Assembly (NCBI GenBank): GCA_963834525.1
Contig: CAWICA010000002.1
Coordinates: 36,666 to 100,665 of the forward strand
Source: Bryobacterales bacterium
GTDB taxonomy: Bacteria > Cyanobacteriota > Vampirovibrionia > Obscuribacterales > Obscuribacteraceae
Direction of reading: 5' to 3'
DNA length: 64,000 nt
Each line of letters opens with the position of its first letter. Within the stretch, counting starts at the first letter, position 1. Shown one piece after another: positions 6,336-40,645 of the stretch. The notes below the pieces were generated by a model. That model made no database searches. It had not been told where the DNA came from and was given only the letters and a program-made list of their open reading frames with translations. The position numbers and the translations under genes were made by a program.

Positions 6336-7493
6336 CTACCTGGCAACCGCTTCCAATTCGCGTCGAAGCAGTTCAATTCTGGGACGCAACTGCGCATCAG
6401 TGTTGTATAGCTTGCGGAACGCAGCTTGCCCCGCTTTTTTTAACGCGGCAAGTTTTTTTCGGTCAGTGATGTATGAAGCGGCGATGTGGGCAATTTCTGA
6501 GGGCGAATGCCCAATCACGACTATTTCTTCTCGATCTTTGAGATAAAAATTTTGCCAGAGACAATCGGTAGCAAATATTGCCACTTCTTGCAGTCCCGCT
6601 TGGACGGCTGCTCCAGTGGGGAAGCCGTCAAATAGACCATGGATTGGATAACCAGCACGATTGGGTGAGATGAGAATGTCCATCTTTTGAAAGAACTTCA
6701 ATAACGCGCCGGTAGGCATCGGCATATGGAAATTTACTCGCTCTGATACATCATCATCACGAATGTCGCCTCGTTCGTAATCGCCGACGACGTGGAATTG
6801 CACCTTGAGGTTCAGAGAAATTAGCCTGCGGACAACGTCCATAAAAATATCGTAGCCTCTGTCTCGACCGTCCTCAACGTATTTACCGGAGACAAAACAA
6901 ATGTCGCAGGCACCATCGTCGACCATCTGGGCGTTGCCATTTCTTGATTCTCGCGAAGTCTCTTGCAAAAATTCCTCAGGCACCACCACCCCAGGAATAA
7001 GGGCAATTTGCTCCTCACGACAATACTGTCCGCCAAGTAAATAGTCCCTGGCGAATGGTTGGGTGACGATCACTTTGCGGAAATTCGGCAGCGACAAGAT
7101 TCTGCGCAATACTCCGTTAGATGCTTTGTGATAGGGCTGGAACGAACCACCAGGATAGAGTGTAAACACAAACGGGATCTTGCTTTTGATCAATTCTTTC
7201 CGGAATGTCTGGCAATTGCCGAGAAACACCATATAAAGCAACTCGGCAAAGTCAGCTAGATTTCTTTCGCCAGGTTGAAGAGATGAGACTCGTCCCTCAT
7301 ACTCTCGATGATGATCGACAAAATCGTCGATTAGTTTTGCAACCGGTTTGGTCTCACCTAGCGAATGCAGCTCGTCGCCGCTGGAGAGCACCACTGAGTC
7401 TTCTATGTTATCTAGATAGGCCGTAAATTCTGCGTACCTGGATGCAGATAATGGCGAAGGAAACACGTTGTCCAAAATTGCTAATTTAGGCAT
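6336..7493 (-). CDS. Divergent glycosyltransferase, GT-B fold (GT4-like)
   Basis: 385-aa soluble ORF. The C-terminal half ('FHVVGDYERG..MDILISPNRAGYPIHGLFDGFPTGAAVQAGLQEVAIFATD') has the layout of a GT-B donor-binding domain. The family assignment is weak. Confidence 0.45.
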   Translation of the reverse strand: MPKLAILDNVFPSPLSASRYAEFTAYLDNIEDSVVLSSGDELHSLGETKPVAKLIDDFVDHHREYEGRVSSLQPGERNLADFAELLYMVFLGNCQTFRKELIKSKIPFVFTLYPGGSFQPYHKASNGVLRRILSLPNFRKVIVTQPFARDYLLGGQYCREEQIALIPGVVVPEEFLQETSRESRNGNAQMVDDGACDICFVSGKYVEDGRDRGYDIFMDVVRRLISLNLKVQFHVVGDYERGDIRDDDVSERVNFHMPMPTGALLKFFQKMDILISPNRAGYPIHGLFDGFPTGAAVQAGLQEVAIFATDCLWQNFYLKDREEIVVIGHSPSEIAHIAASYITDRKKLAALKKAGQAAFRKLYNTDAQLRPRIELLRRELEAVAR

Positions 7494-7520: not shown

Positions 7521-8750
7521 TTATTTGTCAGTTTTTCTAGGCAGAGTGCGGCCGTACACTAAACGTGCGCGAAACTGCCGGATTGGAGCGGTCATCCGCC
7601 AGGACTCCGATCTAAGCAATTTGTTGTGTTCATTTCGCAGCTGTTCTAATTCCGCATTCAAGGATTCAATCTTCTGATGAAAATGCTTTTTCTGCTGCGC
7701 GAATTCCTTATCGCAAATGGTCCGCATTTCATCAAGACCGCGTTTGTGTGCTCTAGCAGCTTTTTCTCTTGCCTCGGCAACTGCATGACGCCTCCACCAA
7801 TTTAAGCGCGAGATATACCAGCCAATTTCAAAAACGATACGGATGTAATCTTGCAGCATTTCTTCGGAACCCCAGTGTTCCATTTCCTTAGCTGCTTCAA
7901 GCACATCTGCTGGAGTAATGTTCGATTTGTACACTTGATCAAGCGTTCTAACAATATGCCTGAAGGCAACGCCATTGTGATCAGCCCAATGATCGCTGTA
8001 AAAATCCCCGTCCTCACAACTGATTTCTTGCGCGACGCAAAATTTACTGAATGAATCGCGCAAAATGACGAAATCATGCAGGATAAGAAGTGATTCCTTG
8101 ACCTTGTTGGATTCTGTTTGGTGTTCAAATTTACGCACATTGCTCAGACATTGAGACAGGAACATGTAATCGCCTTTCGCCGCCAGGCGGAAGAAAAATT
8201 CAAATGGGGCCAAAAAATAGTACCGTTCGTCGAAACCATCGAGCGCATAATCTCGGCGAAAGCAGCATGAAGACATGTGTTCAAAGTTCGGCTTGAAATC
8301 GAGAAGCGCATGCTTAGCTACCTCAGCCCCAGCGACTAATGTGTCAGCCTCTTTTGCCGTCCTCTCTGAGATGTAGGCGCCTTCGTGAGTGACAAATCTA
8401 CAAGACGAATCCGCTAAGACCAAATCGGGGCATAGAGCGAAGGCCCTGGCAAATGTTTTTAGGCAATCTTTCTCCAGGTAGTCCTTAGCAGATAAAAACT
8501 GAATAAGAGAGCCTCGGCTTTCCTGCAGAGCGCGGTTAAGTTTCTTTGCGGAACTACCAGAAATGTCAATTTTCCGCAGGCGTGGCTCCGAATGGCAGAG
8601 CTTCTTAGCATATTCGTGAGTACCGCCTTGGCTGTCACTGCAAATGAGCAGCTCAAAATCTGCAAAACTTTGGTTCAAGACGCTGTCTACGGCCTGACTA
8701 AGGTATGGTTCATCAGGTTCGGCGGCAATACACACCGAGATTAAGGGCAT
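7521..8750 (-). CDS. GT2-like protein with C-terminal coiled coil and S-W-R tail (paralog family with 12521, 15186, 58980, 63525)
   Basis: N-terminal 'ISVCIAAEPDEPYLSQAVDSVLNQSFADFELLICSDS' (GT2 fold). 'FLSAKDYL' sits at the position of the DXD motif. The C-terminus is heptad-like, 'KIESLNAELEQLRNEHNKLLRSESWRMTAPIRQFRARL'. Confidence 0.6.
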   Translation of the reverse strand: MPLISVCIAAEPDEPYLSQAVDSVLNQSFADFELLICSDSQGGTHEYAKKLCHSEPRLRKIDISGSSAKKLNRALQESRGSLIQFLSAKDYLEKDCLKTFARAFALCPDLVLADSSCRFVTHEGAYISERTAKEADTLVAGAEVAKHALLDFKPNFEHMSSCCFRRDYALDGFDERYYFLAPFEFFFRLAAKGDYMFLSQCLSNVRKFEHQTESNKVKESLLILHDFVILRDSFSKFCVAQEISCEDGDFYSDHWADHNGVAFRHIVRTLDQVYKSNITPADVLEAAKEMEHWGSEEMLQDYIRIVFEIGWYISRLNWWRRHAVAEAREKAARAHKRGLDEMRTICDKEFAQQKKHFHQKIESLNAELEQLRNEHNKLLRSESWRMTAPIRQFRARLVYGRTLPRKTDK

Positions 8751-8841
8751 TAAATGTACCTCTTAGTCGCTGCCAATGCGATTATCGATATTACACTACT
8801 CTTTTGCGTAATGACGCCCTGCTTCGGTGATTGACAGTTAA

Positions 8842-9648
8842 ATGGCGATACTTCAAGCGAATCCGTTAGTTAGTGTGGTTATCGCTTGCTATAACCAGAA
8901 ACAATTCTTGCGGTCACTGTTCAGTTCTTTGCTTGGACAAACTTATAGCAACCTGGAAATAATCTTTTTAGACGACTGCAGCCTTGACGATACTTGGGAA
9001 GCCAGTCGGCGGTATCAGGAGCAGCTCGAAGCTAAGTTTACGCGTGTACATATGGAACGGAATGCCACCAACCTTGGTGCCTTGCGAAACTTAGAAAAGG
9101 GTTTCGAAATGGTTTCCGGTGACTATGTATCGTATCTCGAAGCTGATGATTATTATTGTGCGACAAAGGTAGAAAGGAATCTGGAGTTTTTCGAGTCAAA
9201 TCCCTCTTACGGTGCTGTGCATTCAGACTATTATCTGGTGCAAGAGGACCTACAAGTATTGCCCAGGTTCGAAAAAAGCTGGATCGGCAAAGTTCCCTCT
9301 GGTTGGATCTTTGATGATCTGCTCACTAAAAGTTTCGTGCGCGCTCCCACTCTGATGGTTAGACGCGATTTTTTCTTGCGAGCATTCCAATTTGCCCTTT
9401 TTGAAAAGCGCGATTATCGAATGGGTGATTATCCAGGATTGCTAATGCTTTCGCAGATGACAAAAATCGGTTTCATTGAGGATCCGCTCGTATTCTATCG
9501 TGTGCTCGAAGTATCGATGAGCCATACACCGGTGCCCGGCGAAAAAGCGGCATTGATGAAAGCAGTGGAAAAAGTACAAAGGGATGCTCGTATGGGCAGG
9601 CTCAATCCGCAAGACCTAGCGCCCCGACTGGAGTTGAATCGCTGCTAG
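8842..9648 (+). CDS. GT2 glycosyltransferase (paralog of 14256-15026)
   Basis: 'VSVVIACYNQKQFLRSLFSSLLGQTYSNLEIIFLDDCSLDDTWE' and 'YLEADDYY' (DXD). It aligns along its length with the 14256-15026 product. Its 3' end overlaps the convergent gene by 47 nt. Confidence 0.8.
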   Translation: MAILQANPLVSVVIACYNQKQFLRSLFSSLLGQTYSNLEIIFLDDCSLDDTWEASRRYQEQLEAKFTRVHMERNATNLGALRNLEKGFEMVSGDYVSYLEADDYYCATKVERNLEFFESNPSYGAVHSDYYLVQEDLQVLPRFEKSWIGKVPSGWIFDDLLTKSFVRAPTLMVRRDFFLRAFQFALFEKRDYRMGDYPGLLMLSQMTKIGFIEDPLVFYRVLEVSMSHTPVPGEKAALMKAVEKVQRDARMGRLNPQDLAPRLELNRC

Positions 9649-11215
9649 CCAAATCTATAAGAAGCCGTGCGTTGCCATAATCGCGAGTGCCGCGGTCGAC
9701 ATGCAAAAATGTCAGCGGTTCTGTTACTTCGAAGATGCCGATGCCGAGCTTTTGAGCATCTATTATCTCCGTAGGTTGAAGATCAATCTTGTCGACCCAG
9801 ATCTCACCGTCTTCTACCCATCGTTCGTCAACGTCTTGTCGATAATCTCTGTTAATTAGTGCACCGTTTGAGTCAATTACGTGGAAGCAGACAGTAAACT
9901 TCAGCTGCATTCTTTTAAGAGCTTGCCAGACAAGTTTTACGATGGTACGTTCTTTGGCGACCGATATTTCCACGGCCCCTAAGGCAAAGCTATCACCAAA
10001 TCTGGCACCACGAAATTCGCTCGGCGTTTTTGAAGCCAACGCTTCTGCTTCAAGCGGGCGCAGTCTGGTCAACTCTCTCTCGGCTTCGTTGAGCTTGTTC
10101 GACAAATCGTAATGCTCTTTGCGCAGCGACTCGTAAGCATGTGCCAGTGAATTGTAAGCTTGCCCGAGAGACTCGTGTTCATGTCCAAGTTGCTCGATTT
10201 GCTGACCGTACTTGTTCCGTTCACTCCATACAGATGCTGCGTCGTAAAATATTTGTTGTTCTCCCACCGTTTTGAAAAGATATGAGTAAGACAACCCGCA
10301 CAGCGTCTCTATTCTCTTTGCCGTGTTCGGATCGGAAAACAGTTCATGCAAAAGTTGCAGTCCGAAAAGCTGATGCTCGGGACGCGAAACCATAATCGCT
10401 ACATGAGCAAGATGGAAGAGCGACAGCTCATCTACTAGAGGCCACGGATGACCCTCTACTTCCGGGAAGATGCTCTTCAGTGTCTTGATGTCTTTAATTC
10501 GTTTGCTATATTCTTGCAAGCACTGGATAGTCTCAAAGCGGAAGCGAGCGTGGCTCTCTTCCGTTAGCGCGCCGGCATTCTTACTGTTCGCTTGCATTCT
10601 GTATTTGATCAAGATGTCCGGTACAACTACGATTTCGGATTCAAACAGTATCCGCACCCAAAGGTTCATATCGCTAAGTTGCTTGAATTGTGGCGGGAAA
10701 TAACCAAATCGATCTAGTATCGAACGACGCACGAGTCCGGCTGGATTGCATAGATGATTGCGAACGAAAAACATCTCCCTGAGCAGCTCGAACCGGCCTT
10801 TGCCCACTCCATCGGGAGGGGACCCGGTTCCTAATGCGTTGCTGTCATCGTCAATATATGCGCTTTCGCCAAAAACGCCGATCGTATCAGGGTGACTTTG
10901 CAAAAACTTAAGCAGCGTATCGAGCATGTGTGGCTCGTAGACATCATCTGTTCCCAGCCAGGCAACGTACTCTCCTCGAGCATACCCGTACGCCAGAGCA
11001 GTGTTGGCAAATATGCCGCGATTTATGCTGTTTTCGATGATTTTTAAGCGAGGATCACGAAACTGCTTCAGCCGGGCCAAAGTCCCATCTGTTGAAGCAT
11101 CGTCCGAGACGATCAATTCAAAATCTTGAAAGCTCTGGCAAAGAACACTTTCGATTGCCTCTGCAACGTATCTTTCATGATTATAAGTTGGAGCGACGAC
11201 GCTTATCGCTGGCAT
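9602..11215 (-). CDS. GT2 glycosyltransferase, coiled coil, and a C-terminal beta-rich domain shared with the two AT3 acyltransferases
   Basis: 'ISVVAPTYNHERYVAEAIESVLCQSFQDFELIVSDDASTDGT' and 'WLGTDDVY' (GT2). The middle is heptad-like ('LGHEHESLGQAYNSLAHAYESLRKEHYDLSNKLNEAERELTRL'). The last 130 aa or so ('ARFGDSFALGAVEIS..VKLVWQAL..FHVIDSNGALINRDYRQDVDERWVEDGEIWVD..KLGIGIFE..LHVDRGTRDYGNARLLI') match the AT3 C-termini. I see no TM segment. Confidence 0.75.
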   Translation of the reverse strand: MPAISVVAPTYNHERYVAEAIESVLCQSFQDFELIVSDDASTDGTLARLKQFRDPRLKIIENSINRGIFANTALAYGYARGEYVAWLGTDDVYEPHMLDTLLKFLQSHPDTIGVFGESAYIDDDSNALGTGSPPDGVGKGRFELLREMFFVRNHLCNPAGLVRRSILDRFGYFPPQFKQLSDMNLWVRILFESEIVVVPDILIKYRMQANSKNAGALTEESHARFRFETIQCLQEYSKRIKDIKTLKSIFPEVEGHPWPLVDELSLFHLAHVAIMVSRPEHQLFGLQLLHELFSDPNTAKRIETLCGLSYSYLFKTVGEQQIFYDAASVWSERNKYGQQIEQLGHEHESLGQAYNSLAHAYESLRKEHYDLSNKLNEAERELTRLRPLEAEALASKTPSEFRGARFGDSFALGAVEISVAKERTIVKLVWQALKRMQLKFTVCFHVIDSNGALINRDYRQDVDERWVEDGEIWVDKIDLQPTEIIDAQKLGIGIFEVTEPLTFLHVDRGTRDYGNARLLIDLASSDSTPVGALGLAD

Positions 11216-11219
11216 CGGT

Positions 11220-12530
11220 TCACCTTCTTACACTAATTTCTCTGCCTGATTCTACGTCCGGGCAAGCGTCATGAGATTGTCCGCTCGACTTTAACTGCTC
11301 GAACAATTTGATATAAGAAGCAGCCATTTTCTCTTGGGAATAGTGACTGCAAACATTCTTGCGAGCAGCTTCGCCAAACTGTCTTGCCAATTGAGCATCG
11401 CGATAAAGTGCCGCAATTCTGCCAACGAAATCATCGACCGCCGCTACATCACAAATAAATCCGTTGATTCCATCTTGCACAACAATCGGTACGCTACCGA
11501 CTCGACTGGCGACAATTGGTGTGCCATGTGCTTGCGCTTCCATGAGAACGAGCGGCATGCCATCAAGCGATGACGGCAAGACCAAAACGTCTGTCACTGC
11601 CATTAGTGGGTGAACGTTCTTGATGAAACCTGGCAGATAAATGCGCGAACGAAGTTTAGACTGATCAATTCGCTCATCAATTTTCTTACGCAGCGGGCCA
11701 TCACCGGCCATAATGAATCTGATATTGTCGTGCTCCGTTAGCCTGCTAGCAATATCCACAAACATTTCTGGTTCCTTCTCCCTGGAAAAACGGCCAACGA
11801 AAGAGACAATAAACTTATCTTTGAACTCCTCGGGTAAGGCGGCGCGACCGGCAGCGGCGAATGCTGACAAATCCGCCTCCTGCGGAATGCATATGCCGTG
11901 CGGAATGGTAACAACGTCCTCCTCGCGGGCATCAAACTTATCCACCAACGTGTTTCGAAGCACTGGCGACGGAACAATTGTTTTGTCTATGTGCTTGCTG
12001 AAAAAACGATTGCTGTTCAGATGACCCACATCATTGAACAGCTGGTCCACGACATGGATCTTGGGATATCTTTTCCTTATTGCAGCAAGAGATCGATAAA
12101 TAAAGTCACAACCCATTTGCAAAAGACTCATCTGAGGATTGCGATCGAGGAGCTTGAACAGAAATGTTCTCATTTGTTTATCGGAGGAGAGAAATCTGGG
12201 CATGTGGTAAACAGGCAGACCCATCGCCTCAAACAGTGCGGTAGAATCGCCCATCGTTGGATTGGCCGGATTAGTGGTTATCACCACGACCTGCTCGCCG
12301 GATTGCTGCAAAAGCTGGCCTAAATGTCCAAAGAACACCTCAGTTCCATCGACTAGAAACGGTATGCACATTACAATTGTCGGTCTAAGAGAAAATCTCG
12401 CTCTATCAAAAAGAGTGCTGTCTTCCGGCACGGAGGACACAGGAGACGGCTGCCTGGCCAGCACCTGGTACTCAATATCGTCAACGGCAGACGACTCTTT
12501 TATAAACGTAATAGGACTTCTCAGCAACAT
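11220..12530 (-). CDS. GT4 (GT-B) glycosyltransferase, homologous to each half of the 54412-56730 protein
   Basis: 436-aa ORF. 'FVGRFSREKEPEMFVDIA', 'LPSSLDGMPLVLMEAQAHGTPIVASRVGSVPIVVQDGINGFI' is the GT4 E..E region. The N-terminal half ('VVVITTNPANPTMGDSTALFEAMGLPVYHMP') parallels both halves of the tandem GT4. Confidence 0.75.
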   Translation of the reverse strand: MLLRSPITFIKESSAVDDIEYQVLARQPSPVSSVPEDSTLFDRARFSLRPTIVMCIPFLVDGTEVFFGHLGQLLQQSGEQVVVITTNPANPTMGDSTALFEAMGLPVYHMPRFLSSDKQMRTFLFKLLDRNPQMSLLQMGCDFIYRSLAAIRKRYPKIHVVDQLFNDVGHLNSNRFFSKHIDKTIVPSPVLRNTLVDKFDAREEDVVTIPHGICIPQEADLSAFAAAGRAALPEEFKDKFIVSFVGRFSREKEPEMFVDIASRLTEHDNIRFIMAGDGPLRKKIDERIDQSKLRSRIYLPGFIKNVHPLMAVTDVLVLPSSLDGMPLVLMEAQAHGTPIVASRVGSVPIVVQDGINGFICDVAAVDDFVGRIAALYRDAQLARQFGEAARKNVCSHYSQEKMAASYIKLFEQLKSSGQSHDACPDVESGREISVRR

Positions 12531-14278
12531 TCGATAGAAACGTTGGCCTGGCCAAGATCTAAGTAATCCTCATTCAACAGATGTTTTTTGAAGACCAGGT
12601 AAGGATGATAGGCGAAACTGGCCAAACCATCCTGCGGATTTCTCTGAGCTGCCGGCGGCAATACAGACCATTGATGTTTTCCATTTCTTTGTTTTTGGCT
12701 GCTCTGTCTTCTGGCCGGTGCAATCAGGCTTTCACCAAAATGCTCCGCAAGAAATAATGCTTTTTCTAAATAGGTTAGTGTAACTTGATCGTCTGCTTTC
12801 CAAAAACAAATATATTTGCCTTGGGCAGATTCAATTGTTTTCTCAACTGCCTCAACAGATTGAGAACATCGCTCAAGGCGCACAGATTTTCCGGACGTCC
12901 TGAAGTCCGCAAGTAATTCCTCAGGTATTTCCTTGTCGGTCAATAAGACAATCTCCAGGCTCTCTAATGTCTGCTGTGAGAGCCGCTGCAAATTTTTGAT
13001 AGGCAATGGCCAGCTGTCCCAGAGTGGCACAATCACGGTAACTGCTACCAAATCCTTGGTCGGCTCCGATATTTGATTCTGGTTGATGATTCGATCGAGA
13101 CTTGCTTCTTGTGCTATCTCCGGCTCGAAGGAAGAGAACGGTTCTGTCTCCCTGCCTGTCAAAGTTCGACGCACTGATTGCACTTTCGTCGATAATTTCC
13201 ACGTCGCCGAGCGCAGGATCTTCTTTCTCACGAGCTCGAGTTCCTCGACTTCCTGCTCGATCGATTCAAGCTCCTTCTGTCCGACTAGATCTCTTTGGTG
13301 CTCTTGTGCACGCTGCGACCTGTTGATCCAGAGGTGAGTTAAGGATTCAAGGCAATCGGCTATTTCTTCAGGAGTAAGGTCATCAAACAGTATTTCAGCT
13401 GCCCGCAAACTGAGAGCAAGATCGCAATTGCCCGCCCTCACCATTGAGCTACCCACCTGATCGAGCGTCTTGTCAAACATGTCGCTGCGCTTACCTATTG
13501 ATAGCGAAGCGAGGCCAGCCGCCGCACTGGTGGAACTAAAGAGTTTGGTCAGATCAGCCAATTTAACAAGCGATTCCTTGAGCCGGTTATCTTGTGCCAA
13601 CTCATCGAAGTAGCGAACAGAGACAAGCTCAACATCCAGCGCATATGAGCTGCGATATGCCAGGAGCGAAGTCCAGAGAGCGAGGTCAGATCCGGCAACA
13701 TATCTGTCATCAATAGATTGAAATACATTATCGCGCCTGAACATAGTTGCCGAAAGTGGTCCGATCACACTATGCGCTTCGAGTAACGCCTCTTTGATCA
13801 CTGCTGTGCCTTCTAAAATAGTATTCGGGTGGTCTACCCGTACGCTCTTTATAAATGCCCCTTCTGCCGTGACACAGCGGTAGCCGCAGCTGACTATACC
13901 AACCTGGGGATAACGCTCAAAAATCCGCCCCATTTCATCCAATGCATTGAAATCAAGAGTGTCTCCCGGATTCAAGCATTTGATCAATCGCGAATCACTC
14001 TGTTTTATAAGCAACTTCAGAGCCTTGTTCCTTCCTAGCCGCTCTTGATTGCAAAAGACTTTGAAACGAGAGTCCCGATCAGCGTATTCCTGAGCAATGG
14101 CGAGAGAATCGTCTGCGGAATCTTCGTCAGCGATGAACACATCAAAATTCGGGTAAGTCTGACCAATGATGCTGTCCAAAGTTTCACGCAGGTACGATCC
14201 ATTGTTGCGTGCAACGAGGCAAACTGTCACCGGTGATCTCATTCGTTCCTCAGCTTTATAAAAGGCCGAGCCTGGCAT
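12521..14278 (-). CDS. Two-module GT2-like protein (GT2, coiled coil with S-x-T-W-K motif, second degenerate GT2-like module)
   Basis: N-terminal 'VTVCLVARNNGSYLRETLDSIIGQTYPNFDVFIADEDSADDS'. Central 'ELESIEQEVEELELVRKKILRSATWKLSTKVQSVRRTL'. C-terminal 'VAVTVIVPLWDSWPLPIKNLQRLSQQTLESLEIVLLTD' looks like a second Rossmann-like GT-A module. 'LNPGDTL' sits at the first DXD position. Confidence 0.6.
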   Translation of the reverse strand: MPGSAFYKAEERMRSPVTVCLVARNNGSYLRETLDSIIGQTYPNFDVFIADEDSADDSLAIAQEYADRDSRFKVFCNQERLGRNKALKLLIKQSDSRLIKCLNPGDTLDFNALDEMGRIFERYPQVGIVSCGYRCVTAEGAFIKSVRVDHPNTILEGTAVIKEALLEAHSVIGPLSATMFRRDNVFQSIDDRYVAGSDLALWTSLLAYRSSYALDVELVSVRYFDELAQDNRLKESLVKLADLTKLFSSTSAAAGLASLSIGKRSDMFDKTLDQVGSSMVRAGNCDLALSLRAAEILFDDLTPEEIADCLESLTHLWINRSQRAQEHQRDLVGQKELESIEQEVEELELVRKKILRSATWKLSTKVQSVRRTLTGRETEPFSSFEPEIAQEASLDRIINQNQISEPTKDLVAVTVIVPLWDSWPLPIKNLQRLSQQTLESLEIVLLTDKEIPEELLADFRTSGKSVRLERCSQSVEAVEKTIESAQGKYICFWKADDQVTLTYLEKALFLAEHFGESLIAPARRQSSQKQRNGKHQWSVLPPAAQRNPQDGLASFAYHPYLVFKKHLLNEDYLDLGQANVSIECC

Positions 14279-15026
14279 GCTGTCGAATCAGCATCACCGA
14301 GTCTCTGAAGGCTTGGCTCTTCTTTGTGTCATGACTAGCGGAGTTAGCCAATACTCTGTAGTAGGCTAGCGGTTCTGGAATGTAACCGAACTCAGTCAAC
14401 TTGCTCATACCAAGTACAGCGGGGTAATCAGTCATCATATAACCTCGCTCCTGAAAGAGAATGCGTTTATAACATTGCCGGTAGAGGTTCTTACGAACCA
14501 TAAGCGTAAGATGACCAACGGTGTTCTCTTGTAGTAAAGCATCATAGCCCCAGCCAGAAACCGGGTTAAGACTCGTAGTCTTAAAGAAGCCGCTATCGGC
14601 GACCTGACCATCTTTGTCGTGATAAAAATCAGAATGCACAGCACCGATATGCGAGTTTGTGTTTAAGTAGGAGACACAATAACCGAACCTCGTTGGATGA
14701 TAATAGTCGTCTCCGTCCATGCTACACATGTACTCTCCAGTTGCCTGACTCGCGGCAACTTCACCAGTCAAATGCATACCGAGATTGACTGAATTTTGTT
14801 GGATGGTCACATTTGCAAAAGCATCCTTAAGGCGAGTTTCGTACGACTTCGCTAAGGCGAAGCTTTCGTCCGGACTACAGTCGTCAACGAAAATGATCTC
14901 GAGGTTTCGGTATGTTTGAGCCAGTAATGAATCAAACAGATCAGTCAGGTATGGAGCGTGCTTATAACAGAGTATGCAAACGCTTACCAGCGGTTTATAG
15001 TCAAATCGGTTACCGGTTAGCAACAC
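14256..15026 (-). CDS. GT2 glycosyltransferase (paralog of 8842-9648)
   Basis: 'VSVCILCYKHAPYLTDLFDSLLAQTYRNLEIIFVDDCSPDESF' and 'SMDGDDYY'. GTG start. The gene overlaps the upstream stop, which suggests operon coupling. Confidence 0.8.
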   Translation of the reverse strand: MLLTGNRFDYKPLVSVCILCYKHAPYLTDLFDSLLAQTYRNLEIIFVDDCSPDESFALAKSYETRLKDAFANVTIQQNSVNLGMHLTGEVAASQATGEYMCSMDGDDYYHPTRFGYCVSYLNTNSHIGAVHSDFYHDKDGQVADSGFFKTTSLNPVSGWGYDALLQENTVGHLTLMVRKNLYRQCYKRILFQERGYMMTDYPAVLGMSKLTEFGYIPEPLAYYRVLANSASHDTKKSQAFRDSVMLIRQHARLGLL

Positions 15027-15185
15027 TCGGCTTGCTCTCCTTCATCACACTTTTTTCATCAAAACATCGCCAACAAAGTGTCTCAGGACCGCGCAGATGT
15101 GGCAGAGTTCATTTTCATCAAGTCTCCTTAGAAATTTTACGCGCTTTTATGACCTAAAATAGCTATCTACACTCGGTCGCATAGC

Positions 15186-16379
15186 ATGACAATGTTCTCA
15201 CTTTGTCTTTTGTCTAACCCTGGAAACGATGCTCTGGCAGTGGTCGACGCGCTGAGCTCCCAGACGTTTGCCGATTGGGAAGCAATTCTCTGCCTGGATG
15301 GTGCGGGTAACCAGAGCCAGGTCCTTGCTGAGCGCTCCCAAGCAGATCCACGAATCAAGCTAATCGCAGCCGACCAATCACTTAGTTTTTATGGCAACCT
15401 CAATCGTTGCCTAACGACCGCTCGGGGAGAATTGATAAAAATTCTCCATCCGAATGAACTCCTCTCCACTCAAGCATTGGCAGAACTGGTCGAGACTTTC
15501 GAAAAGAAAAGTGCCAGTCAGGTAGTCACATATGGCAGCAACGTGTTTTCAACGTTAGACCAGCAAGGAGGCCATAGCCTCGTTGATACCTTGTCTATGT
15601 TGCCGCCTGGACTGAGTGATCATTGTCTACAAGGATTGAAAGACTTTTTTCCGCTTAATGGAGAGCCGCGGTCGATTTATCTTTGCGCTTTCCGACGCCC
15701 TACCGTCCTTCCTCAGTTTGACCTGAAATTGAATCTGCTTGCCGAACATTGTTTTCTCTTTTCACTCTTTCAGCCTGAACCGGAAACAGTCCATTGCAAT
15801 AAAACTCTCAGCGAGATCGCCGTGCCTGAGCCAAAGCTAGACATATCAGCGGAGGTCCAATACCTCTCGCTCATCGGTGAATTAGTACTATTTCATGCAC
15901 GACTAGCTAAAGAAGATTCTCTCCACTATAGCTCGCTCATCATCCGGCTGAAAAAACTACGGGATGCCTTGGAAGACGAATGTTTCACAAAGTTTAGTAT
16001 TCCACTTCTAGAGTTGCTTGCTCGCGAAAGATTACCCATAAGAGATTTACCACCGGCGACTTTGAAGCAGATTGGCTTCGCTCTTACTGCTGCAGCCTGC
16101 GACCGCATTTTGCAAATCGAACAGACTCAAATTGACTGCTACTATCGCTCGATCAAATTGAAAGAATTGCGCGAACACAAGAAGTATTTGGAGCGGGAGG
16201 TCAACGCCCTGCTCGGCTCGCGTTCGTGGCGCGCGCTGGAACCACTTCGTTCAGCTAAGAAGAAGGCTTATGGTCTGGCGGCATTTCTAAAAAAACAAAC
16301 GCCATCAGGACCAAAGAACAATGGCAACGGTAGTACTGCCAACGGTGTCACCAGTCGTTCTCCCACTATTGCCGACTGA
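15186..16379 (+). CDS. Degenerate GT2-like protein with C-terminal coiled coil and S-W-R tail
   Basis: It aligns with the 58980-60197 family ('RIKLIAADQSLSFYGNLNRCLTTARGELIKILHPNELL' vs 'RIKHWINERNLKLFGNYNECMRRATGKYIKPFAHDDLL'). 'HPNE' replaces the DXD. The C-terminus is 'KLKELREHKKYLEREVNALLGSRSWRALEPLRSAKKK'. Confidence 0.5.
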   Translation: MTMFSLCLLSNPGNDALAVVDALSSQTFADWEAILCLDGAGNQSQVLAERSQADPRIKLIAADQSLSFYGNLNRCLTTARGELIKILHPNELLSTQALAELVETFEKKSASQVVTYGSNVFSTLDQQGGHSLVDTLSMLPPGLSDHCLQGLKDFFPLNGEPRSIYLCAFRRPTVLPQFDLKLNLLAEHCFLFSLFQPEPETVHCNKTLSEIAVPEPKLDISAEVQYLSLIGELVLFHARLAKEDSLHYSSLIIRLKKLRDALEDECFTKFSIPLLELLARERLPIRDLPPATLKQIGFALTAAACDRILQIEQTQIDCYYRSIKLKELREHKKYLEREVNALLGSRSWRALEPLRSAKKKAYGLAAFLKKQTPSGPKNNGNGSTANGVTSRSPTIAD

Positions 16380-25007: not shown

Positions 25008-25055
25008 ATAAACTCCGGCGCGGAAGTTAACGTCAGGAGCGCCTTTCTCCGAACC

Positions 25056-26546
25056 CTAGATGAACATTGCTGAACTGGGAAAACCGGCAACTGCGAAGTC
25101 GACGCTCTCAATTTTTGGTAGTTGATCGGGAGCCACGGCAGGAGCGGTAGCCGAATGTGCTGGATGGGCAGCGTCATGAACTATATTATCCATGTAGTAA
25201 TCGACTGCCTCTTGCGGGTTTCCTTCTTTGACGATTTGCCCTTTGAACAGAACAATGGCCCGATTGCACAGTTCAATAATATGTTTGCTTTCATGCGAAA
25301 CCAAAACAAGTATTTGGGATTGATTCATCATTTCATGCAGGCGGTCTAAACACTTCTGGACAAACTGCGCATCGCCGGCGGCAAATATTTCATCCATCAA
25401 AAGAATCTCTGGATCGCAGATCGCCCCAATCGAGAAAGCCAAGCGTCCATGCATGCCAGTTGAATAATATTTGATCGGCAGATCGATCATCTCACCAAGC
25501 TCAGAGAACTCGATGATCGCTTTTTCCAGCGCTCTCATCTGCTTGTAAGAGCGGCCCATAAGCGCTCCGTTCAGATAGATGTTCTCCCGCCCGCTCAGTT
25601 CATGATCAAAACCGGTACCCAGCTCGATCAAGGGAGTGATCTTGCCACGGACCAGAATCTCACCCGATTGAGCCGGATAAATGCCGACGATCATTTTCAA
25701 CAAAGTAGATTTGCCGGCGCCATTCAATCCCAGGATTCCCAGCCGATCCCCAGGGCGAAGTTCAAGATTGATGTTTTTCAGAGCGTCGAATTCAGTTACG
25801 GTGTTGTGATTCTTCCGGCTCATTCTCTGAACCACCGTCTCCTTTAGGCCGGGCGACGGATTTCGGTAAAGACGAAAGCGCAATGAGGCATCTCTAACAA
25901 TGACATAGACATCATTGTCGCTCCCCATGCTCTGCGCCTGCGCCGAACCTTCTCCTTCGCCGACGGTAGACACCGACGCCGTGCGCACAAGCAATTGCTG
26001 TTGATGGCGCCGGCTCAATTGCAGCCGTCTAAGGGCCCGGGGAGCGAACAAAAGAACAAAGCACAGAGCGGCCTCAATGAAAATTATGGCGAATGAGATC
26101 TGGGTGCCCTCTATCGACAGCCACCCAAGCGAGCGCACGCCAATGAAGACCGCAGTGACAAGAAAAACTGGCAAGCCAAGCTCGAATGCTTCCTTGATTC
26201 CTGTGTGTCCCCAATTACTTTTGTACACCCCGCAGAGCCAATTGACGAGCAACTGTAGAGCCACCACTATCGGTAGCAACCAGAGCAATTGATGAAGGTA
26301 CCCGGCATCTGCCTCTGATCTAAACAGGTCGAAATGGAAGCGGGCTATAAACGCTCCCACCAAAGCGAGCGCAATCAGAGCCGCATCGATGACCATTTGC
26401 CCAAGCCGCCTGGCCGTCACATTGGCGATCTCGGTAGTTTGAGTTATACCTGAATCTCGCGGCTGGACAAGAGTCTCCTGCGTAGCTGGTTGCGTTGCGG
26501 ATTCAGTTATGGGTTCAGTCAAAAGCGTGTTTGTTGTCGGTGCCAT
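25056..26546 (-). CDS. wzt: Wzt/TagH/KpsT-type polysaccharide-export ABC ATPase with an N-terminal four-TM extension
   Basis: The NBD has Walker A 'GILGLNGAGKSTLLKM', 'LIELGTGFDHELSGRENIYLNGALMG', signature 'YSTGMHGRLAFS' and Walker B 'ILLMDEIFAAGD'. About 230 aa carrying four hydrophobic helices precede it. The track ORF starts at 26609 and overlaps wzm. ATG at 26546 ('MAPTTN') is the more likely start. Confidence 0.85.
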   Translation of the reverse strand: MAPTTNTLLTEPITESATQPATQETLVQPRDSGITQTTEIANVTARRLGQMVIDAALIALALVGAFIARFHFDLFRSEADAGYLHQLLWLLPIVVALQLLVNWLCGVYKSNWGHTGIKEAFELGLPVFLVTAVFIGVRSLGWLSIEGTQISFAIIFIEAALCFVLLFAPRALRRLQLSRRHQQQLLVRTASVSTVGEGEGSAQAQSMGSDNDVYVIVRDASLRFRLYRNPSPGLKETVVQRMSRKNHNTVTEFDALKNINLELRPGDRLGILGLNGAGKSTLLKMIVGIYPAQSGEILVRGKITPLIELGTGFDHELSGRENIYLNGALMGRSYKQMRALEKAIIEFSELGEMIDLPIKYYSTGMHGRLAFSIGAICDPEILLMDEIFAAGDAQFVQKCLDRLHEMMNQSQILVLVSHESKHIIELCNRAIVLFKGQIVKEGNPQEAVDYYMDNIVHDAAHPAHSATAPAVAPDQLPKIESVDFAVAGFPSSAMFI

Positions 26547-26580
26547 GATAGTCAAAAGATCCCCAGCAAATAAGAAACCG

Positions 26581-30096
<3,516 letters not shown>

Positions 30097-30205
30097 AGTG
30101 TCCTCTGAAATCTAAAAATTACATCCGTCTTTCGGCACGCTTTGGTCTTGAACCCGAGAGAAAGGCGATCTCCAAGCGGCCTCAGCAGCTTTAGGATTGT
30201 CTAGC

Positions 30206-31234: not shown

Positions 31235-31287
31235 AGGAGTTAGTAGCCTGGCTCACTGCTAGCCAGTGCAATCGTATGAAGAATTGC

Positions 31288-31359
31288 AATTGAATTGTAC
31301 CTTACGGATTCCAGAGCTCGGCAGACGGCTAGAAATGAGAGCTCAAATTGAATTGCACC
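31288..31359. promoter_or_regulatory. Pair of 14-bp direct repeats (AATTGAATTGYACC) spaced 58 bp apart in a divergent promoter region
   Basis: aattgaattgtacc at 31288-31301 and aattgaattgcacc at 31346-31359. They lie between the divergent starts at 31234 (-) and 31451 (+). Confidence 0.25.
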
Positions 31360-31450
31360 GAAGTTAGAAGTTTTGAAGGGTGCTGTTGCAGTCATGAACT
31401 TAAGAGATACTGCTTAAATAAGCGGACATCGGTGAAGCTCAGAAAATCTC

Positions 31451-33361: not shown

Positions 33362-33370
33362 TTCAGCCGA

Positions 33371-39451: not shown

Positions 39452-40645
39452 ATGACGGAAAACCAACGATCGCAAGTCGCAACCAGCAATGAAAATTACA
39501 TTCAAGCTCCTGAACTCAAAGCGTGGAGCCCAGGCAAGCTAACTGTTGTATTGCGCGCGCATAAAGGCGCTAATAGAGTCCAGCTATTGAATGCCCTGAA
39601 CTCTCTAGTTGCTCAAGATTATGTGCCGATGGAGATCCTGCTTGTCACTGATGATTCAGACATGACAGCGCAGGAGAGTTTGCGCTCTCTCGTTGCTTCG
39701 AGCTTCAAAACTCAAGAAGAGAAAAAACAAGGCAAAGTGCTTTTTTGCGATTGCTCTGATCTACAAGATTCCAGATCTCGACTCCTTAACGAGGGGATAC
39801 TCAGCGCTTCTGGTCAATATTTAGCCTTTCTGGATTATGACGACATAGTCTATCCGAGCGCTTATTCGACTTTGATTGATGAACTGATAACTTCTGGAAA
39901 GGCAGTGGCAGCAGGCGGCTGCAAAGTCGCACAGATGTCCTGGAATGGGGAGGACCTAGTTCAACTTAAGCTGCGTGATTTGGAACTGAAAGGCTCCTCC
40001 AAGTTAGATTTATGGCGAGCCAATTTCTTACCGATCCACAGCTTTGTCCTCAATCGAGCATTAATCGCAAACGAGCTTTTGCAAACGAACCAATCTCTCA
40101 ACCGCTTAGAAGACTACTGGCTTCTTCTTCAAATCTCATTCGCCGTAGAATTTTCATTTACGCGAATGGACAAACCGGTCTGCGAATACAGAACTTTCAG
40201 TGCCGATCTTTCTGGTGCCCAGACTTCAGACTCAAAAGACTGGCAAAGCGCGAAAGATTGCATTGATTTTCTATTGAGAGATTCTTTTGCCAAAGTGCAA
40301 GTCGAAGAGGTATGCCAAGTGTTGCGCGAACTGAGACAAGCAAGTCTCAAATTGGCCGCCGCCTCTGAAGAAGTGTCTCACAAACAGGCAAGGATGACGG
40401 AGCTGAAAGCGACTATACATTCCCTACAACAAGAAAATAACCAGCTCGGCGAAAGAATCGCCAATCTCACAAACCAGGCAGAAGGACTGAAGAGAAACAA
40501 CGAGCAGATGGCGTTGCAGCTCGACCAGCTAAACGCGATACTAGCGAGAAAGCCTTATTTTATTCTCTCCAGGCTGATGGGAGTGGCGGACCGGTTTAGA
40601 ACACGCCGCTCAACTAAAGAGACACTGCAAAACGAGGGCATGTGA
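39452..40645 (+). CDS. GT2-like glycosyltransferase with C-terminal coiled coil
   Basis: 'LTVVLRAHKGANRVQLLNALNSLVAQDYVPMEILLVTDDSDM' and 'YLAFLDYDDIVYPSAY' (DXD retained). The C-terminus is heptad-like, 'MTELKATIHSLQQENNQLGERIANLTNQAEGLKRNNEQMALQLDQLNAIL'. Confidence 0.55.
   Translation: MTENQRSQVATSNENYIQAPELKAWSPGKLTVVLRAHKGANRVQLLNALNSLVAQDYVPMEILLVTDDSDMTAQESLRSLVASSFKTQEEKKQGKVLFCDCSDLQDSRSRLLNEGILSASGQYLAFLDYDDIVYPSAYSTLIDELITSGKAVAAGGCKVAQMSWNGEDLVQLKLRDLELKGSSKLDLWRANFLPIHSFVLNRALIANELLQTNQSLNRLEDYWLLLQISFAVEFSFTRMDKPVCEYRTFSADLSGAQTSDSKDWQSAKDCIDFLLRDSFAKVQVEEVCQVLRELRQASLKLAAASEEVSHKQARMTELKATIHSLQQENNQLGERIANLTNQAEGLKRNNEQMALQLDQLNAILARKPYFILSRLMGVADRFRTRRSTKETLQNEGM

What the first reader, a model, noticed from the sequence alone, without database searches (positions are those of the whole stretch)
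7521..16379. Family of GT2-like paralogs with coiled coils, a recurring S-W-R/K tail and partly degenerate DXD motifs: candidate scaffold or ruler proteins
At least five proteins share one GT2-like N-terminal module: 7521-8750, 12521-14278, 15186-16379, 58980-60197 and the partial gene at 63525. In each complete protein a heptad-rich segment follows, then a short basic motif: 'SESWRMTAPIRQFR', 'SATWKLSTKVQSVR', 'SRSWRALEPLRSAK', 'SMSWKVTAPLRKLK'. At the DXD position only two keep D-D ('AHDD', 'AQDD'). The others read 'SAKD', 'NPGD' and 'HPNE', so they may be non-catalytic. The proteins at 39452-40645 and 9602-11215 also carry coiled coils. In ABC-transporter-dependent O-antigen systems, coiled coils act as molecular rulers or scaffolds (E. 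coli O9a WbdD, WbbB-type proteins). Several coiled-coil proteins sharing a tail motif suggest a multi-enzyme assembly docked through a common element.
Basis: partly seen in the sequence, partly recalled or inferred. Interest (0 to 1): 0.6.

Follow-up and report, generated by a model that had tools for sequence, protein, structure and literature searches.

The report
Dead glycosyltransferase paralogs as enzyme adaptors
A sugar-polymer gene cluster encodes a family of glycosyltransferases that end in a helical stalk and a short, strictly conserved, positively charged end-piece; three copies have lost their catalytic residues but kept the stalk and a recognisable end-piece, and one of them is clearly a conserved, probably non-catalytic partner of the neighbouring enzyme.

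Summary
The element S-x-S-W-[KR]-x-T-x-P-[LI]-R occurs 11 times in the genome's reading frames against 0 in shuffles. Its W, T and R are invariant in 78 homologs, as conserved as the catalytic Asp residues.

AlphaFold models show a GT-A core, a helical subdomain, one 77-85-residue helix, a break at S-x-S, and a short cationic tail helix (mean charge +4.3).

The three copies at 7521-16379 have lost much more than the DXD. P0001 keeps 5 of 21 invariant GT-domain positions but 8 of 9 stalk/tail positions. P0001 belongs to a conserved degenerate clade. It always lies beside a small intact GT2 and upstream of a GT-B-like gene. In five related genomes the degenerate GT2, stalk, motif and GT-B-like domain form one polypeptide.

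P0001 is therefore most likely a pseudo-glycosyltransferase adaptor, comparable to COSMC or IRX9. P0002 and P0003 have no orthologs; their status is less certain.

What the end-piece does (membrane foot, docking peptide or coil cap) is unresolved. The "ruler" idea is untested. No library or paper searched describes the motif.

The parts
7521..8750 (-). P0001 (409 aa): degenerate GT2 + stalk + end-piece; the conserved pseudo-GT2 type
   Evidence: PF00535 E=7.6e-10. Keeps 5 of 21 strictly invariant GT-domain positions but 8 of 9 stalk/tail positions. AF2 pLDDT 83.6 with a confident GT-A core. Relatives P0126, P0129, P0130 and P0132 share the degeneracy.
8475..8498 (-). P0001 'FLSAKDYL': xDD position, ribose-binding Asp replaced by Lys, metal Asp kept
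   Evidence: Alignments; residue roles from the SpsA alignment.
8184..8213 (-). P0001 'LAPFEFFFRL': xED position, catalytic-base Asp replaced by Pro
   Evidence: role of the xED Asp per PMC7185993.
7614..7868 (-). P0001 long helix (aa 295-379), the stalk
   Evidence: AF2 secondary structure; heptad score significant for aa 351-380.
7569..7610 (-). P0001 end-piece 'SESWRMTAPIRQFR'
   Evidence: profile hit of 62 bits.
6336..7493 (-). GT-B-like partner (385 aa), 27 nt downstream of P0001
   Evidence: Weak PF13692 hit. Orthologs sit next to P0001-type genes (52% and 37.5% identity). Fused to P0001-like halves in G021, G083, G106, G108 and G076.
8842..9648 (+). Small intact GT2 (268 aa), divergent from P0001; third member of the module
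   Evidence: PF00535 E=9e-26. A close homolog (42-65% identity) is adjacent in L048, L049, G023, G016, G083, G106 and G108; in the two G076 loci the adjacent small GT2 is only a distant relative (22-23%); G021 was not examined.
12521..14278 (-). P0002 (585 aa): degenerate GT2 + short coil + degenerate internal motif + second partial GT2-like domain
   Evidence: No homolog besides itself. Overlaps both neighbouring genes.
13169..13210 (-). P0002 internal motif 'SATWKLSTKVQSVR' (T, P and R positions changed)
13955..13978 (-). P0002 'CLNPGDTL' at the xDD position
11220..12530 (-). Canonical GT4 (436 aa), overlaps the P0002 stop by 10 nt
   Evidence: PF00534 E=7.9e-35.
14256..15026 (-). Small GT2 (256 aa), paralog of 8842-9648; overlaps the P0002 start by 23 nt
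   Evidence: PF00535 E=2.6e-21; 42% and 40% identical to the module's small GT2 in L048 and L049.
15186..16379 (+). P0003 (397 aa): degenerate GT2 + helical region + end-piece
   Evidence: No ortholog in 104 family genomes; closest relative is P0001. Very long branch.
16218..16259 (+). P0003 end-piece 'SRSWRALEPLRSAK'
15441..15464 (+). P0003 'ILHPNELL' at the xDD position
58980..60197 (-). P0004 (405 aa): canonical, presumably active family member
   Evidence: PF00535 E=2e-28. 484 homologs found. AF2 pLDDT 94.3. All SpsA key Asp residues present.
59037..59267 (-). P0004 long helix (aa 311-387)
   Evidence: heptad score significant for aa 362-390.
58995..59036 (-). P0004 end-piece 'SMSWKVTAPLRKLK'
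   Evidence: W391, T394 and R398 are invariant in 78 homologs.
63525..63998 (+). P0005, 5' part of a 415-aa canonical member (AQDD) with a coiled coil and the variant tail 'SRITYRVAGRV'
39452..40645 (+). GT2 with an intact DXD (LDYDD) and a coiled coil but no S-W-[KR] motif; overlaps a GT4-like gene by 4 nt
9602..11215 (-). GT2 with an intact DXD (LGTDD), a coiled coil and a further C-terminal domain; no motif
25056..27534 (-). Wzt-like ATPase and Wzm-like permease: the locus is of the ABC-transporter-dependent type
   Evidence: PF00005 and PF01061.

Best explanation
Shown: the window encodes members of a widespread but uncurated family of soluble GT2 (GT-A) glycosyltransferases. Their C-terminal half is a helical subdomain, one long helix with heptad character (the stalk), and a strictly conserved cationic end-piece, S-x-S-W-[KR]-x-T-x-P-[LI]-R-x-h-[KR].

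Canonical copies (P0004, P0005 and about six more in the genome) keep all four Asp residues that bind UDP, ribose and Mn2+ and act as base in SpsA. They are presumably active enzymes.

The three copies clustered at 7521-16379 belong to a degenerate branch that has lost the ribose-binding Asp, the C-terminal His and many other invariant pocket residues. P0001 has also lost the catalytic base. They keep the fold and the stalk, and two of the three keep the end-piece intact.

Inferred: P0001 is a pseudo-glycosyltransferase. It works as a non-catalytic adaptor of a conserved three-part module made of a small intact GT2, the dead GT2 with stalk and end-piece, and a GT-B-like enzyme. In related genomes the dead GT2, stalk, end-piece and GT-B-like domain are a single polypeptide, so the two window proteins most likely form a complex. 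P0002 sits in an analogous arrangement (small GT2, P0002, GT4, all overlapping) and probably works the same way. P0003 is a further diverged copy.

Inferred by analogy with WbdD, WbbB and ORF7(O4): the stalk oligomerises. The cationic Trp/Arg end-piece forms the membrane-proximal foot that holds the assembly at the cytoplasmic face of the membrane, where undecaprenyl-linked acceptors and the Wzm/Wzt exporter are.
For: Family and fold:
- PF00535 hits.
- AF2 models.
- Foldseek finds only GT-A GT2 enzymes: CgT, K4CP, SpsA, TarP, RmlT, WrtF.

End-piece is real and selected:
- 11 matches against 0 in shuffles.
- W391, T394 and R398 invariant in 78 homologs.
- 158 of 274 relatives carry it, and 151 of 162 instances lie within 45 residues of the C-terminus.
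- Net charge +4.3 on average, never below +1.

Degeneracy:
- table: P0001 keeps 5 of 21 GT-domain invariants and 8 of 9 stalk/tail positions.
- Residue roles from the SpsA alignment and PMC7185993.

Conserved degenerate clade: (clade support 93-99).

Module synteny with orthologous neighbours.

Fusions:
- L031_858 residues 6-372 match P0001 (E=7e-24) and residues 493-825 match the 6336-7493 protein (E=3e-69).
- Three more fused proteins have P0001-like N-terminal halves: G083, G106 and G108. Two fused proteins in G076 carry a more distant GT2 half.
- In 10 of 11 P0001-like halves the DD pair is incomplete (four have lost both Asp). The C-His is lost in all 11. The end-piece is kept in 8 of 11.

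Membrane-proximal hints:
- P0058 has a transmembrane segment 4 residues after the motif.
- L032 and L035 have a hydrophobic stretch about 20 residues after it.
- ORF7(O4) and WbdD are precedents.
Against: - No activity, binding or localisation data exist.
- The metal-binding Asp (D94) is retained in P0001 and P0002 and is Glu in P0003. Some GT-A families work without a DxD or an xED Asp, so residual or altered catalysis is possible.
- P0002 and P0003 have no orthologs and very long branches. Their grouping with P0001 may be long-branch attraction.
- The tail helix is only weakly amphipathic (moment 0.39 against 0.31 shuffled). Strict conservation of S, W, T, P and R is more than generic membrane binding usually needs.
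- Only one clear case of a transmembrane segment after the motif was found.
- The split P0001-like genes in G023 and G016 lack the motif, so it is not essential to the module.
Confidence: 0.55

Rival explanations
1. The degenerate copies are still active glycosyltransferases that use a non-canonical catalytic apparatus. Possibilities are metal-independent catalysis, a phosphate acceptor that needs no base, or a switch towards a retaining mechanism.
For: - D94 (metal Asp) is kept in P0001 and P0002 and is Glu in P0003.
- R59, N76, F176/R177 and R200 stay conserved.
- P0002, P0003, P0130 and P0132 keep an acidic residue at the base position.
- PMC7185993 lists GT-A families that lack the DxD or xED Asp yet are active.
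Against: - Losses are multiple and concentrated in the pocket: P10, G14, S42, D44, N74, Y75, D93, N166, E170, P171 and H220.
- Four fused orthologs have lost both Asp of the DD pair, and all 11 have lost the C-His.
- An intact small GT2 (close homolog in 8 of the 10 modules examined, distant relative in the two G076 loci) always sits beside the module and could supply the GT-A activity.
Confidence: 0.2
2. P0002 and P0003 (not P0001) are paralogs under relaxed constraint on their way to becoming pseudogenes. Their resemblance to P0001 is shared ancestry without current function.
For: - No ortholog of P0003 in 104 family genomes.
- No homolog of P0002 in 5.8 billion proteins.
- Branch lengths of 2.95 and 4.48.
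- P0002's motif is itself degenerate.
- Neither reaches significance in the heptad score.
Against: - Both are uninterrupted frames of 585 and 397 codons.
- P0002 overlaps both neighbouring genes by 10 and 23 nt, as in translationally coupled operons.
- P0003 keeps S-x-S-W...P-L-R exactly.
Confidence: 0.15
3. The coiled coils are molecular rulers of the WbdD/WbbB kind, and the shared end-piece is a docking peptide. Through it many GT2 paralogs, active and dead, attach to one common partner or to each other to form a multi-enzyme assembly line.
For: - The locus is ABC-transporter-dependent.
- In such systems coiled-coil proteins are membrane-associated scaffolds and rulers (PMC11231755).
- At least seven coiled-coil GT2 proteins lie in one 64-kb window.
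- The invariant W, T and R lie on one outward stripe of the tail helix, as expected for a specific interface.
- The distance from the GT core to the motif varies from 129 to 216 residues in discrete clade-specific classes.
Against: - No sequence or fold link to WbdD or WbbB.
- No terminator chemistry can be assigned.
- The Wzt has no recognisable carbohydrate-binding module.
- No candidate partner was identified, and the one co-occurrence test was uninformative.
- The motif also occurs between domains of single polypeptides and ahead of varied domains (GT4, GT2, other). That fits a generic structural or membrane element at least as well.
Confidence: 0.2
4. The end-piece is purely structural: a cap that ends the coiled coil and sets its register or oligomeric state. 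It has no binding function of its own.
For: - It always follows a coiled coil directly, whether at the C-terminus or inside multidomain proteins, sometimes twice in tandem.
- S-x-S and T-x-P are typical helix-capping and kink elements.
- Its hydrophobic positions continue a 4-3-4 heptad spacing.
- E374 and L378 upstream are co-conserved with it.
Against: - A cap does not explain the uniformly high positive charge (+4.3) or the outward-facing invariant Trp and Arg.
- Coiled-coil GT2 proteins of the same window (39452-40645, 9602-11215) do without it.
Confidence: 0.2

Closest known systems
COSMC (C1GALT1C1), a GT31 paralog of T-synthase
   Same: A GT-A paralog that lost its DxD and xED motifs, keeps the fold, has no activity, and serves as scaffold and chaperone for an active glycosyltransferase (PMC7185993). 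P0001-type proteins likewise lose these motifs, keep the fold, and are tied to an active-looking partner.
   Different: COSMC is eukaryotic, belongs to a different GT family, partners with its own paralog and has no coiled-coil stalk. P0001 partners with a GT-B-like enzyme and a small GT2. The association is inferred from gene fusion and synteny, not shown biochemically.
IRX9/IRX9L (GT43) in the plant xylan synthase complex; GAUT7 in the GAUT1:GAUT7 complex (the latter from my own knowledge)
   Same: GT-A-type proteins whose DxD is dispensable or absent. They are proposed to anchor, scaffold or regulate the catalytic subunit (PMC9874913).
   Different: These are Golgi membrane proteins of plants, unrelated in sequence, with no stalk or end-piece.
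WbdD (E. coli O9a / K. pneumoniae O3) and WbbB (K. pneumoniae O12) coiled-coil terminator/ruler proteins
   Same: They belong to ABC-transporter-dependent glycan loci. The layout is an N-terminal catalytic domain, then a coiled coil, then a membrane-proximal C-terminal region or C-terminal GT modules. The coiled-coil protein acts as a membrane-associated scaffold (PMC11231755). The fused relatives (GT2 - stalk - motif - GT-B) have the WbbB-like domain order.
   Different: There is no sequence or fold similarity beyond generic GT folds. The N-terminal domain here is a GT2, dead in the module. Neither a terminating activity nor a ruler effect is shown. The genome has about 11 such proteins rather than one per locus.
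ORF7(O4), the GT137 Kdo-transferase terminator of K. pneumoniae O4
   Same: A stand-alone GT followed by an alpha-helical bundle and a C-terminal coiled coil. It localised mainly to the membrane (PMC11231755). This is the same overall layout as P0004.
   Different: It has a different catalytic fold and family.
SpsA, K4CP, TarP, RmlT and CgT (solved GT2 enzymes)
   Same: The GT-A core of P0004 and P0001 aligns with them (Foldseek E down to 1e-16). The canonical copies keep all the key SpsA Asp residues.
   Different: Judged from sequence-match spans and Foldseek TM-scores, the matches to these structures cover only the GT-A core, not the single long helix and S-W-[KR] end-piece. P0001-P0003 lack part of the catalytic set.

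Membership tests
GT2 / GT-A fold glycosyltransferases | Sequence match to the GT2 profile above the curated threshold | tested here: met
   PF00535 scores of 39.4, 103.9, 32.6, 99.9 and 94.5 bits against a cutoff of 23.3 for P0001-P0005.
GT2 / GT-A fold glycosyltransferases | GT-A (Rossmann-like) fold | tested here: met
   AF2 models of P0004 (pLDDT 94.3) and P0001 (core above 90). Foldseek top hits are all GT2 structures (run on the P0004 model only).
GT2 / GT-A fold glycosyltransferases (as active enzymes) | DxD/xDD donor- and metal-binding acidic pair | tested here: not met
   Met in P0004 (HDD), P0005 (QDD) and six other copies. Not met in P0001 (KD), P0002 (GD) or P0003 (NE).
GT2 / GT-A fold glycosyltransferases (as active enzymes) | xED Asp catalytic base (SpsA D191) | tested here: inconclusive
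   P0001 has Pro (not met). P0002 has Asp (met). P0003 has Glu (conservative change). Canonical copies have Asp.
GT2 / GT-A fold glycosyltransferases (as active enzymes) | Glycosyl transfer activity | not testable with these tools
   Needs an enzyme assay.
Pseudo-glycosyltransferase scaffolds (COSMC/IRX9-like, a functional class) | Loss of catalytic motifs with retention of the fold | tested here: met
   For P0001: 5 of 21 invariants kept; confident GT-A core. P0002 and P0003 show the same kind of losses, but their folds were not modelled.
Pseudo-glycosyltransferase scaffolds (COSMC/IRX9-like, a functional class) | The degenerate state is conserved across species (selection for a non-catalytic role) | tested here: met
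   Met for the P0001 type in 10 of 11 module members from at least 7 genera plus 2 metagenome contigs. Not met for P0002 and P0003, which have no orthologs.
Pseudo-glycosyltransferase scaffolds (COSMC/IRX9-like, a functional class) | Physical association with an active glycosyltransferase | tested here: inconclusive
   Supported indirectly by natural fusions and conserved adjacency. No direct interaction test was possible.
WbdD/WbbB-type coiled-coil terminator/ruler proteins | Encoded in an ABC-transporter-dependent glycan locus | tested here: met
   Wzm-like and Wzt-like genes at 25056-27534.
WbdD/WbbB-type coiled-coil terminator/ruler proteins | Extended coiled coil between the catalytic domain and the membrane-proximal end | tested here: inconclusive
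   AF2 shows helices of 77-85 residues, but heptad signal covers only the last 30-40 residues. The oligomeric state is unknown.
WbdD/WbbB-type coiled-coil terminator/ruler proteins | Chain-terminating activity at the distal end, with chain length set by coil length | not testable with these tools
   Needs polymer analysis of stalk-length variants.
WbdD/WbbB-type coiled-coil terminator/ruler proteins | Homology to WbdD or WbbB | tested here: not met
   PDB sequence and fold searches return only generic GT2 enzymes. The tail profile hits nothing but GCN4.

The most novel reading that the evidence does not exclude
The S-x-S-W-[KR]-x-T-x-P-[LI]-R end-piece is a dedicated, previously undescribed docking module. 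Through it a dozen stalked GT2 paralogs, active and dead, attach to one common membrane receptor or to each other. This would build a modular cytoplasmic assembly line for a complex glycan. The dead GT2 domains would then act as spacers or chain-binding heads that position GT-B enzymes at set distances from the membrane, making this a multi-ruler system rather than the single ruler known from WbdD and WbbB.
Probability: 0.15. Interest if true: 0.8.

Novelty: new variant of a known kind. Interest (0 to 1): 0.55.

Why it matters
Two things would be useful to people who study bacterial glycan assembly.

First, this is a clear bacterial example of a conserved pseudo-glycosyltransferase tied to active enzymes. 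It exists in both split and fused natural forms, so the interaction can be tested directly and the partners are known in advance. Non-catalytic GT paralogs are documented in eukaryotes (COSMC, IRX9, GAUT7) but I know of few in bacterial polysaccharide pathways.

Second, there is a short, strictly conserved, cationic element at the end of coiled coils in many polysaccharide enzymes. It is absent from Pfam, NCBIfam and the PDB. If it is the membrane foot or docking site of these stalked enzymes, it would give a sequence marker for the membrane-proximal end of coiled-coil scaffolds in ABC-transporter-dependent systems. That would help in annotating the large, poorly understood glycan islands of uncultured bacteria.

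Tried and rejected
- **Tail-only homolog search.** A region-restricted search with P0004 residues 366-405 collected only 2 candidates and found nothing new.
- **Literature search for the motif as letter strings.** It returned only chance word matches such as "miswritten".
- **Earlier notes by sequence.** No look-alikes.
- **Scan of named genomes with the P0001-clade alignment (A4).** The family alignment A3 was used instead, and the window's own genome record was withheld from that scan.
- **Co-occurrence of the tail with the Wzt N-terminal membrane module.** Uninformative: the module is in 34 of 41 relatives, mostly in frames of about 630-675 aa, so the match is not specific to a Wzt fusion.
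- **Sorting or secretion signal.** Considered and rejected. The tail has no hydrophobic segment and also occurs inside cytoplasmic multidomain enzymes.
- **Gene conversion among paralogs as the cause of motif conservation.** Considered and rejected. The motif is equally conserved in homologs only 36-59% identical from many other sources.
- **A clean 7-residue periodicity in stalk length.** Not seen. Lengths cluster by clade without an obvious heptad step.

Full report
**Setting.** The window is C2:36666-100665 of an 8-contig, 4.8-Mb genome. Almost all of it encodes polysaccharide biosynthesis functions:
- Wzm-like and Wzt-like ABC transporter genes at 25056-27534;
- many GT2 and GT4 genes;
- DegT aminotransferases, WbqC, epimerases and dehydratases;
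- two AT3 acyltransferases, an AsnB-like amidotransferase and methyltransferases.

The closest full-length family matches in named genomes are Candidatus Obscuribacterales MAGs. The window's own record was withheld from that scan, so the organism is inferred, not shown.

**The observation.** The five reading frames exist, translate to the quoted strings, and pass the Pfam GT2 threshold.
- A relaxed form of the tail motif matches 11 genome frames against 0 in five shuffles. A 33-column profile of the tail (A2) finds 13 places in the genome.
- Eight further copies of the same architecture lie on contigs C2, C5 and C6. C6 at about 24-36 kb is a roughly 95% identical, colinear copy of the end of C2. 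After allowing for that, about 11 family members are distinct.
- In P0002 the motif is internal and itself degenerate. P0005 continues past the window to 415 aa and ends in a variant 'SRITYRVAGRV'.

**The family.** P0004 has 484 detectable homologs. All 21 that I inspected end in ...N-S-x-S-W-K-V-T-A-P-L-R-x-h-K.
- In a 78-sequence alignment, W391, T394 and R398 are invariant. S388, S390, P396 and L397 are nearly so. They stand alongside the catalytic D93/D94 and the GEP and FR.H blocks.
- AlphaFold2 on this alignment gives a confident model (pLDDT 94.3): GT-A core to about residue 220, a helical subdomain at 224-301, one helix at 311-387, a break at S388, and a tail helix at 389-404.
- Foldseek finds only GT2 enzymes (CgT, K4CP, SpsA, TarP, RmlT, WrtF); judged from alignment lengths and TM-scores, the matches cover little beyond the GT-A core, not the stalk and tail.
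- The tail profile hits no solved structure except GCN4, through its coil part.
- Pfam and NCBIfam have no model covering the C-terminal half, and no curated family reaches its cutoff.

**The end-piece.** Over 151 C-terminal instances it lies a median 18 residues from the end.
- It is always net positive: mean +4.3 and minimum +1, against a slightly acidic rest of the protein.
- It has hydrophobic residues at positions 5, 9, 12 and 16, which continues a heptad-like 4-3-4 spacing.
- This places the invariant W, T and R on one outward stripe.
- The helix is only weakly amphipathic.
- It is modular. In relatives it also occurs between domains, always directly after a coiled coil and sometimes twice. 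Examples are GT2-stalk-motif-stalk-motif-GT4, GT4-GT2-stalk-motif, sulfotransferase-like-stalk-motif-GT-B-like, and an N-terminal coil-motif followed by a hydrophobic stretch.
- One family member (P0058) has a transmembrane segment four residues after the motif and then an SGNH domain.
- The element is frequent in the window's taxonomic family and order: 24 of 41 relatives have a hit at E<=0.01. It is absent from 300 other genomes sampled across the phylum at E<=1e-5. It also appears in a Selenomonadaceae MAG.

**Catalytic residues.** Alignment of P0004 to SpsA equates D40 with D39, D93 with D98, D94 with D99 and D194 with D191. In the SpsA crystal structures these residues bind uracil, ribose and Mn2+, and D191 is the proposed base (my knowledge of the SpsA literature). 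PMC7185993 confirms the general roles of the DxD, the xED Asp and the C-His. A weak, non-significant alignment segment to K4CP places family-invariant H220 at the C-His.

All canonical copies keep these residues. At 61 positions that are at least 90% conserved in the canonical family, the counts kept are:

| Protein | Positions kept of 61 |
|---|---|
| P0001 | 32 |
| P0002 | 27 |
| P0003 | 28 |
| Other copies in the genome | 46-61 |

- The losses fall in the GT domain. P0001 keeps 5 of the 21 strictly invariant positions. It loses P10, G14, S42, D44, N65, N74, Y75, K88, A91, D93, N166, G169, E170, P171 and H220 among those 21, plus D194 (99% conserved), which becomes Pro.
- By contrast it keeps 8 of 9 stalk and tail positions.
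- P0002 has D93 changed to Gly and D40 to Glu, and its motif is degraded.
- P0003 has Asn-Glu at the DD pair and Glu at the base, with an intact motif.
- AF2 shows that P0001 keeps the whole architecture: core pLDDT above 90, helix 295-379, break at 380-381, tail helix 382-401.

**Is the degeneracy conserved?**
- An exhaustive search with P0001 finds only nine proteins below 1e-30. The full-length ones (P0126 at 45% identity, then P0127, P0129, P0130 and P0132) share the loss of D93, H220 and the other pocket residues. Four of the five keep the motif.
- They form a supported clade with P0001 (SH-aLRT 93-99).
- P0003 has no ortholog in 104 genomes of the family, and its closest relative is P0001.
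- P0002 has no homolog besides itself.
- Both sit on very long branches. The tree puts all degenerate sequences on one side of a branch (support 91), but long-branch attraction cannot be excluded.

**The module.** P0126 and P0132 are each encoded between a divergently transcribed small GT2 (264-274 aa) and an overlapping downstream GT4-like gene. This is exactly how P0001 sits between 8842-9648 and 6336-7493.
- The neighbours are orthologous: 65% and 55% identity for the small GT2, 52% and 37.5% for the GT-B-like protein.
- The GT-B-like domain occurs in 8 of 104 family genomes.
- It is a separate gene preceded by a P0001-like gene in G023 and G016.
- It is fused behind a P0001-like half in G021, G083, G106 and G108, and behind a more distant GT2 half twice in G076, with the S-W motif between the halves in all but one G076 protein.
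- A close homolog of the small GT2 (42-56% identity) sits alongside in G083, G106, G108, G016 and G023. In the two G076 loci the adjacent small GT2 is only a distant relative (22-23%). The G021 neighbourhood was not examined.
- The fused G021 protein is colinear with P0001 (residues 6-372, E=7e-24) plus the 6336-7493 protein (residues 493-825, E=3e-69).
- Across 11 P0001-like halves the DD pair reads KD, TD, SD, GD, GA, ES, GV, GT, GT, GD and DD. The C-His is lost in all 11. The motif is intact in 8.
- Split and fused forms of the same components are the classic signature of proteins that work as one complex.
- P0002 lies in an analogous, fully overlapping arrangement: small GT2 14256-15026, then P0002, then GT4 11220-12530.
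- Several canonical copies also abut GT-B genes.

**Interpretation.** P0001 is best read as a pseudo-GT2 adaptor of a three-part glycosyltransferase module.
- COSMC is a close functional precedent: a GT-A paralog that lost its DxD and xED motifs and serves as scaffold and chaperone for its partner. The non-catalytic GT43 proteins of the xylan synthase complex are another.
- The layout of catalytic-type domain, coiled coil, then membrane-proximal end or further GT modules is the one described for WbdD, WbbB and ORF6(O7).
- The stand-alone ORF7(O4) (GT, helical bundle, C-terminal coiled coil) is membrane-associated. In all of these the coiled-coil protein is the membrane-associated scaffold of the complex.
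- By that analogy, and given the cationic Trp/Arg character of the end-piece and the single case of a transmembrane segment just after it, I propose that the end-piece is the membrane-proximal foot of the stalk.
- This last step is inference. A specific docking peptide or a structural coil cap fits the data about as well, and these roles are not mutually exclusive.
- The ruler idea is compatible with the variable, clade-specific stalk length (129-216 residues from core to motif) but has no direct support.

**Limits.**
- No coordinates of the AF2 models could be inspected, so I do not know how much of the long helix is a free stalk.
- No complex prediction was available.
- Earlier first-stage notes from other genomes mention the same S-W-[KR]...P-L-R element after coiled coils on other glycosyltransferase architectures. 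I treated these as leads only. My own searches confirmed independently that the element is modular.

Noticed in passing
window 54412-64000 and genome contig C6 about 24000-36400: C6 carries a roughly 95% identical, colinear copy of the end of contig C2: the double GT4, DegT, 2OG oxygenase, P0004, the 1008-aa GT, P0005, and beyond. This is either a recent segmental duplication or two strain variants binned into one MAG. It inflates the apparent paralog count.
   Followed up: partly
window 63525-63998, continuing to C2:101437: The full-length P0005 ends in 'SRITYRVAGRV' instead of S-W-[KR]. A similar variant, S-x-[ST]-[YFL]-[KR]-[IL]-G-[KR], ends the coiled coils of unrelated multidomain GT2 proteins P0168, P0170 and P0178. 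The end-piece may therefore exist in two flavours.
   Followed up: no
window 6336-7493: The GT-B-like partner has no NCBIfam hit, no PDB sequence hit and only a sub-threshold Pfam Glyco_trans_1_4 hit. It starts with a conserved block, L-x-[IV]-L-D-[DN]-[VI]-F-P-x-x-x-S-[AG]-F-R. It may represent an uncurated GT-B family.
   Followed up: partly
L033, L037, P0158, P0172, P0187, P0195 (relatives): Many multidomain relatives carry a second, shorter unit about 30 residues after the first motif. It has its own conserved signature: [EQ]-Y-L-x-Y-L-[RK]-[RK]-x4-I-x-x-S-[RQ]-S-W-[RKQ]-L-T.
   Followed up: no
P0058 (684 aa, metagenome homolog of P0004): A canonical family member in which the motif is followed after four residues by a transmembrane segment and then an SGNH/GDSL hydrolase domain. 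This links a cytoplasmic GT2 to a probably extracytoplasmic esterase in one chain.
   Followed up: no
C2:1512-1586, C2:102486-103742, C6:16690-17951: Fragments or frameshifted copies of family genes: a tail coded in a short or interrupted frame, or the body and tail in different frames. These are either pseudogenes or assembly errors at repeats.
   Followed up: no
L032 and L035 (relatives G027, G026); window 60197-63223: Proteins that start with coil + motif + a hydrophobic stretch continue with tandem 'D-P-x-P-L-F-D...Y-[WY]-Y-L...N-P-D' repeats. These appear to be the same repeat type noted earlier at the N-terminus of the window's 1008-aa GT. L030, L034, P0167 and P0186 also have these repeats right after the motif.
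   Followed up: no
window 12521-14278: The database copy of P0002 (P0166) is 573 aa, so gene callers use a start 12 codons downstream of the first ATG. P0002's C-terminal 180 residues form a second, truncated GT2-like domain with an intact 'KADD'.
   Followed up: no
window 25056-26609: In the Wzt-like protein the ABC ATPase domain starts only at residue 277 of 517. The N-terminal 270 residues match a module found in frames of about 630-675 aa in 34 of 41 relatives. No carbohydrate-binding module is recognisable after the ATPase domain.
   Followed up: partly
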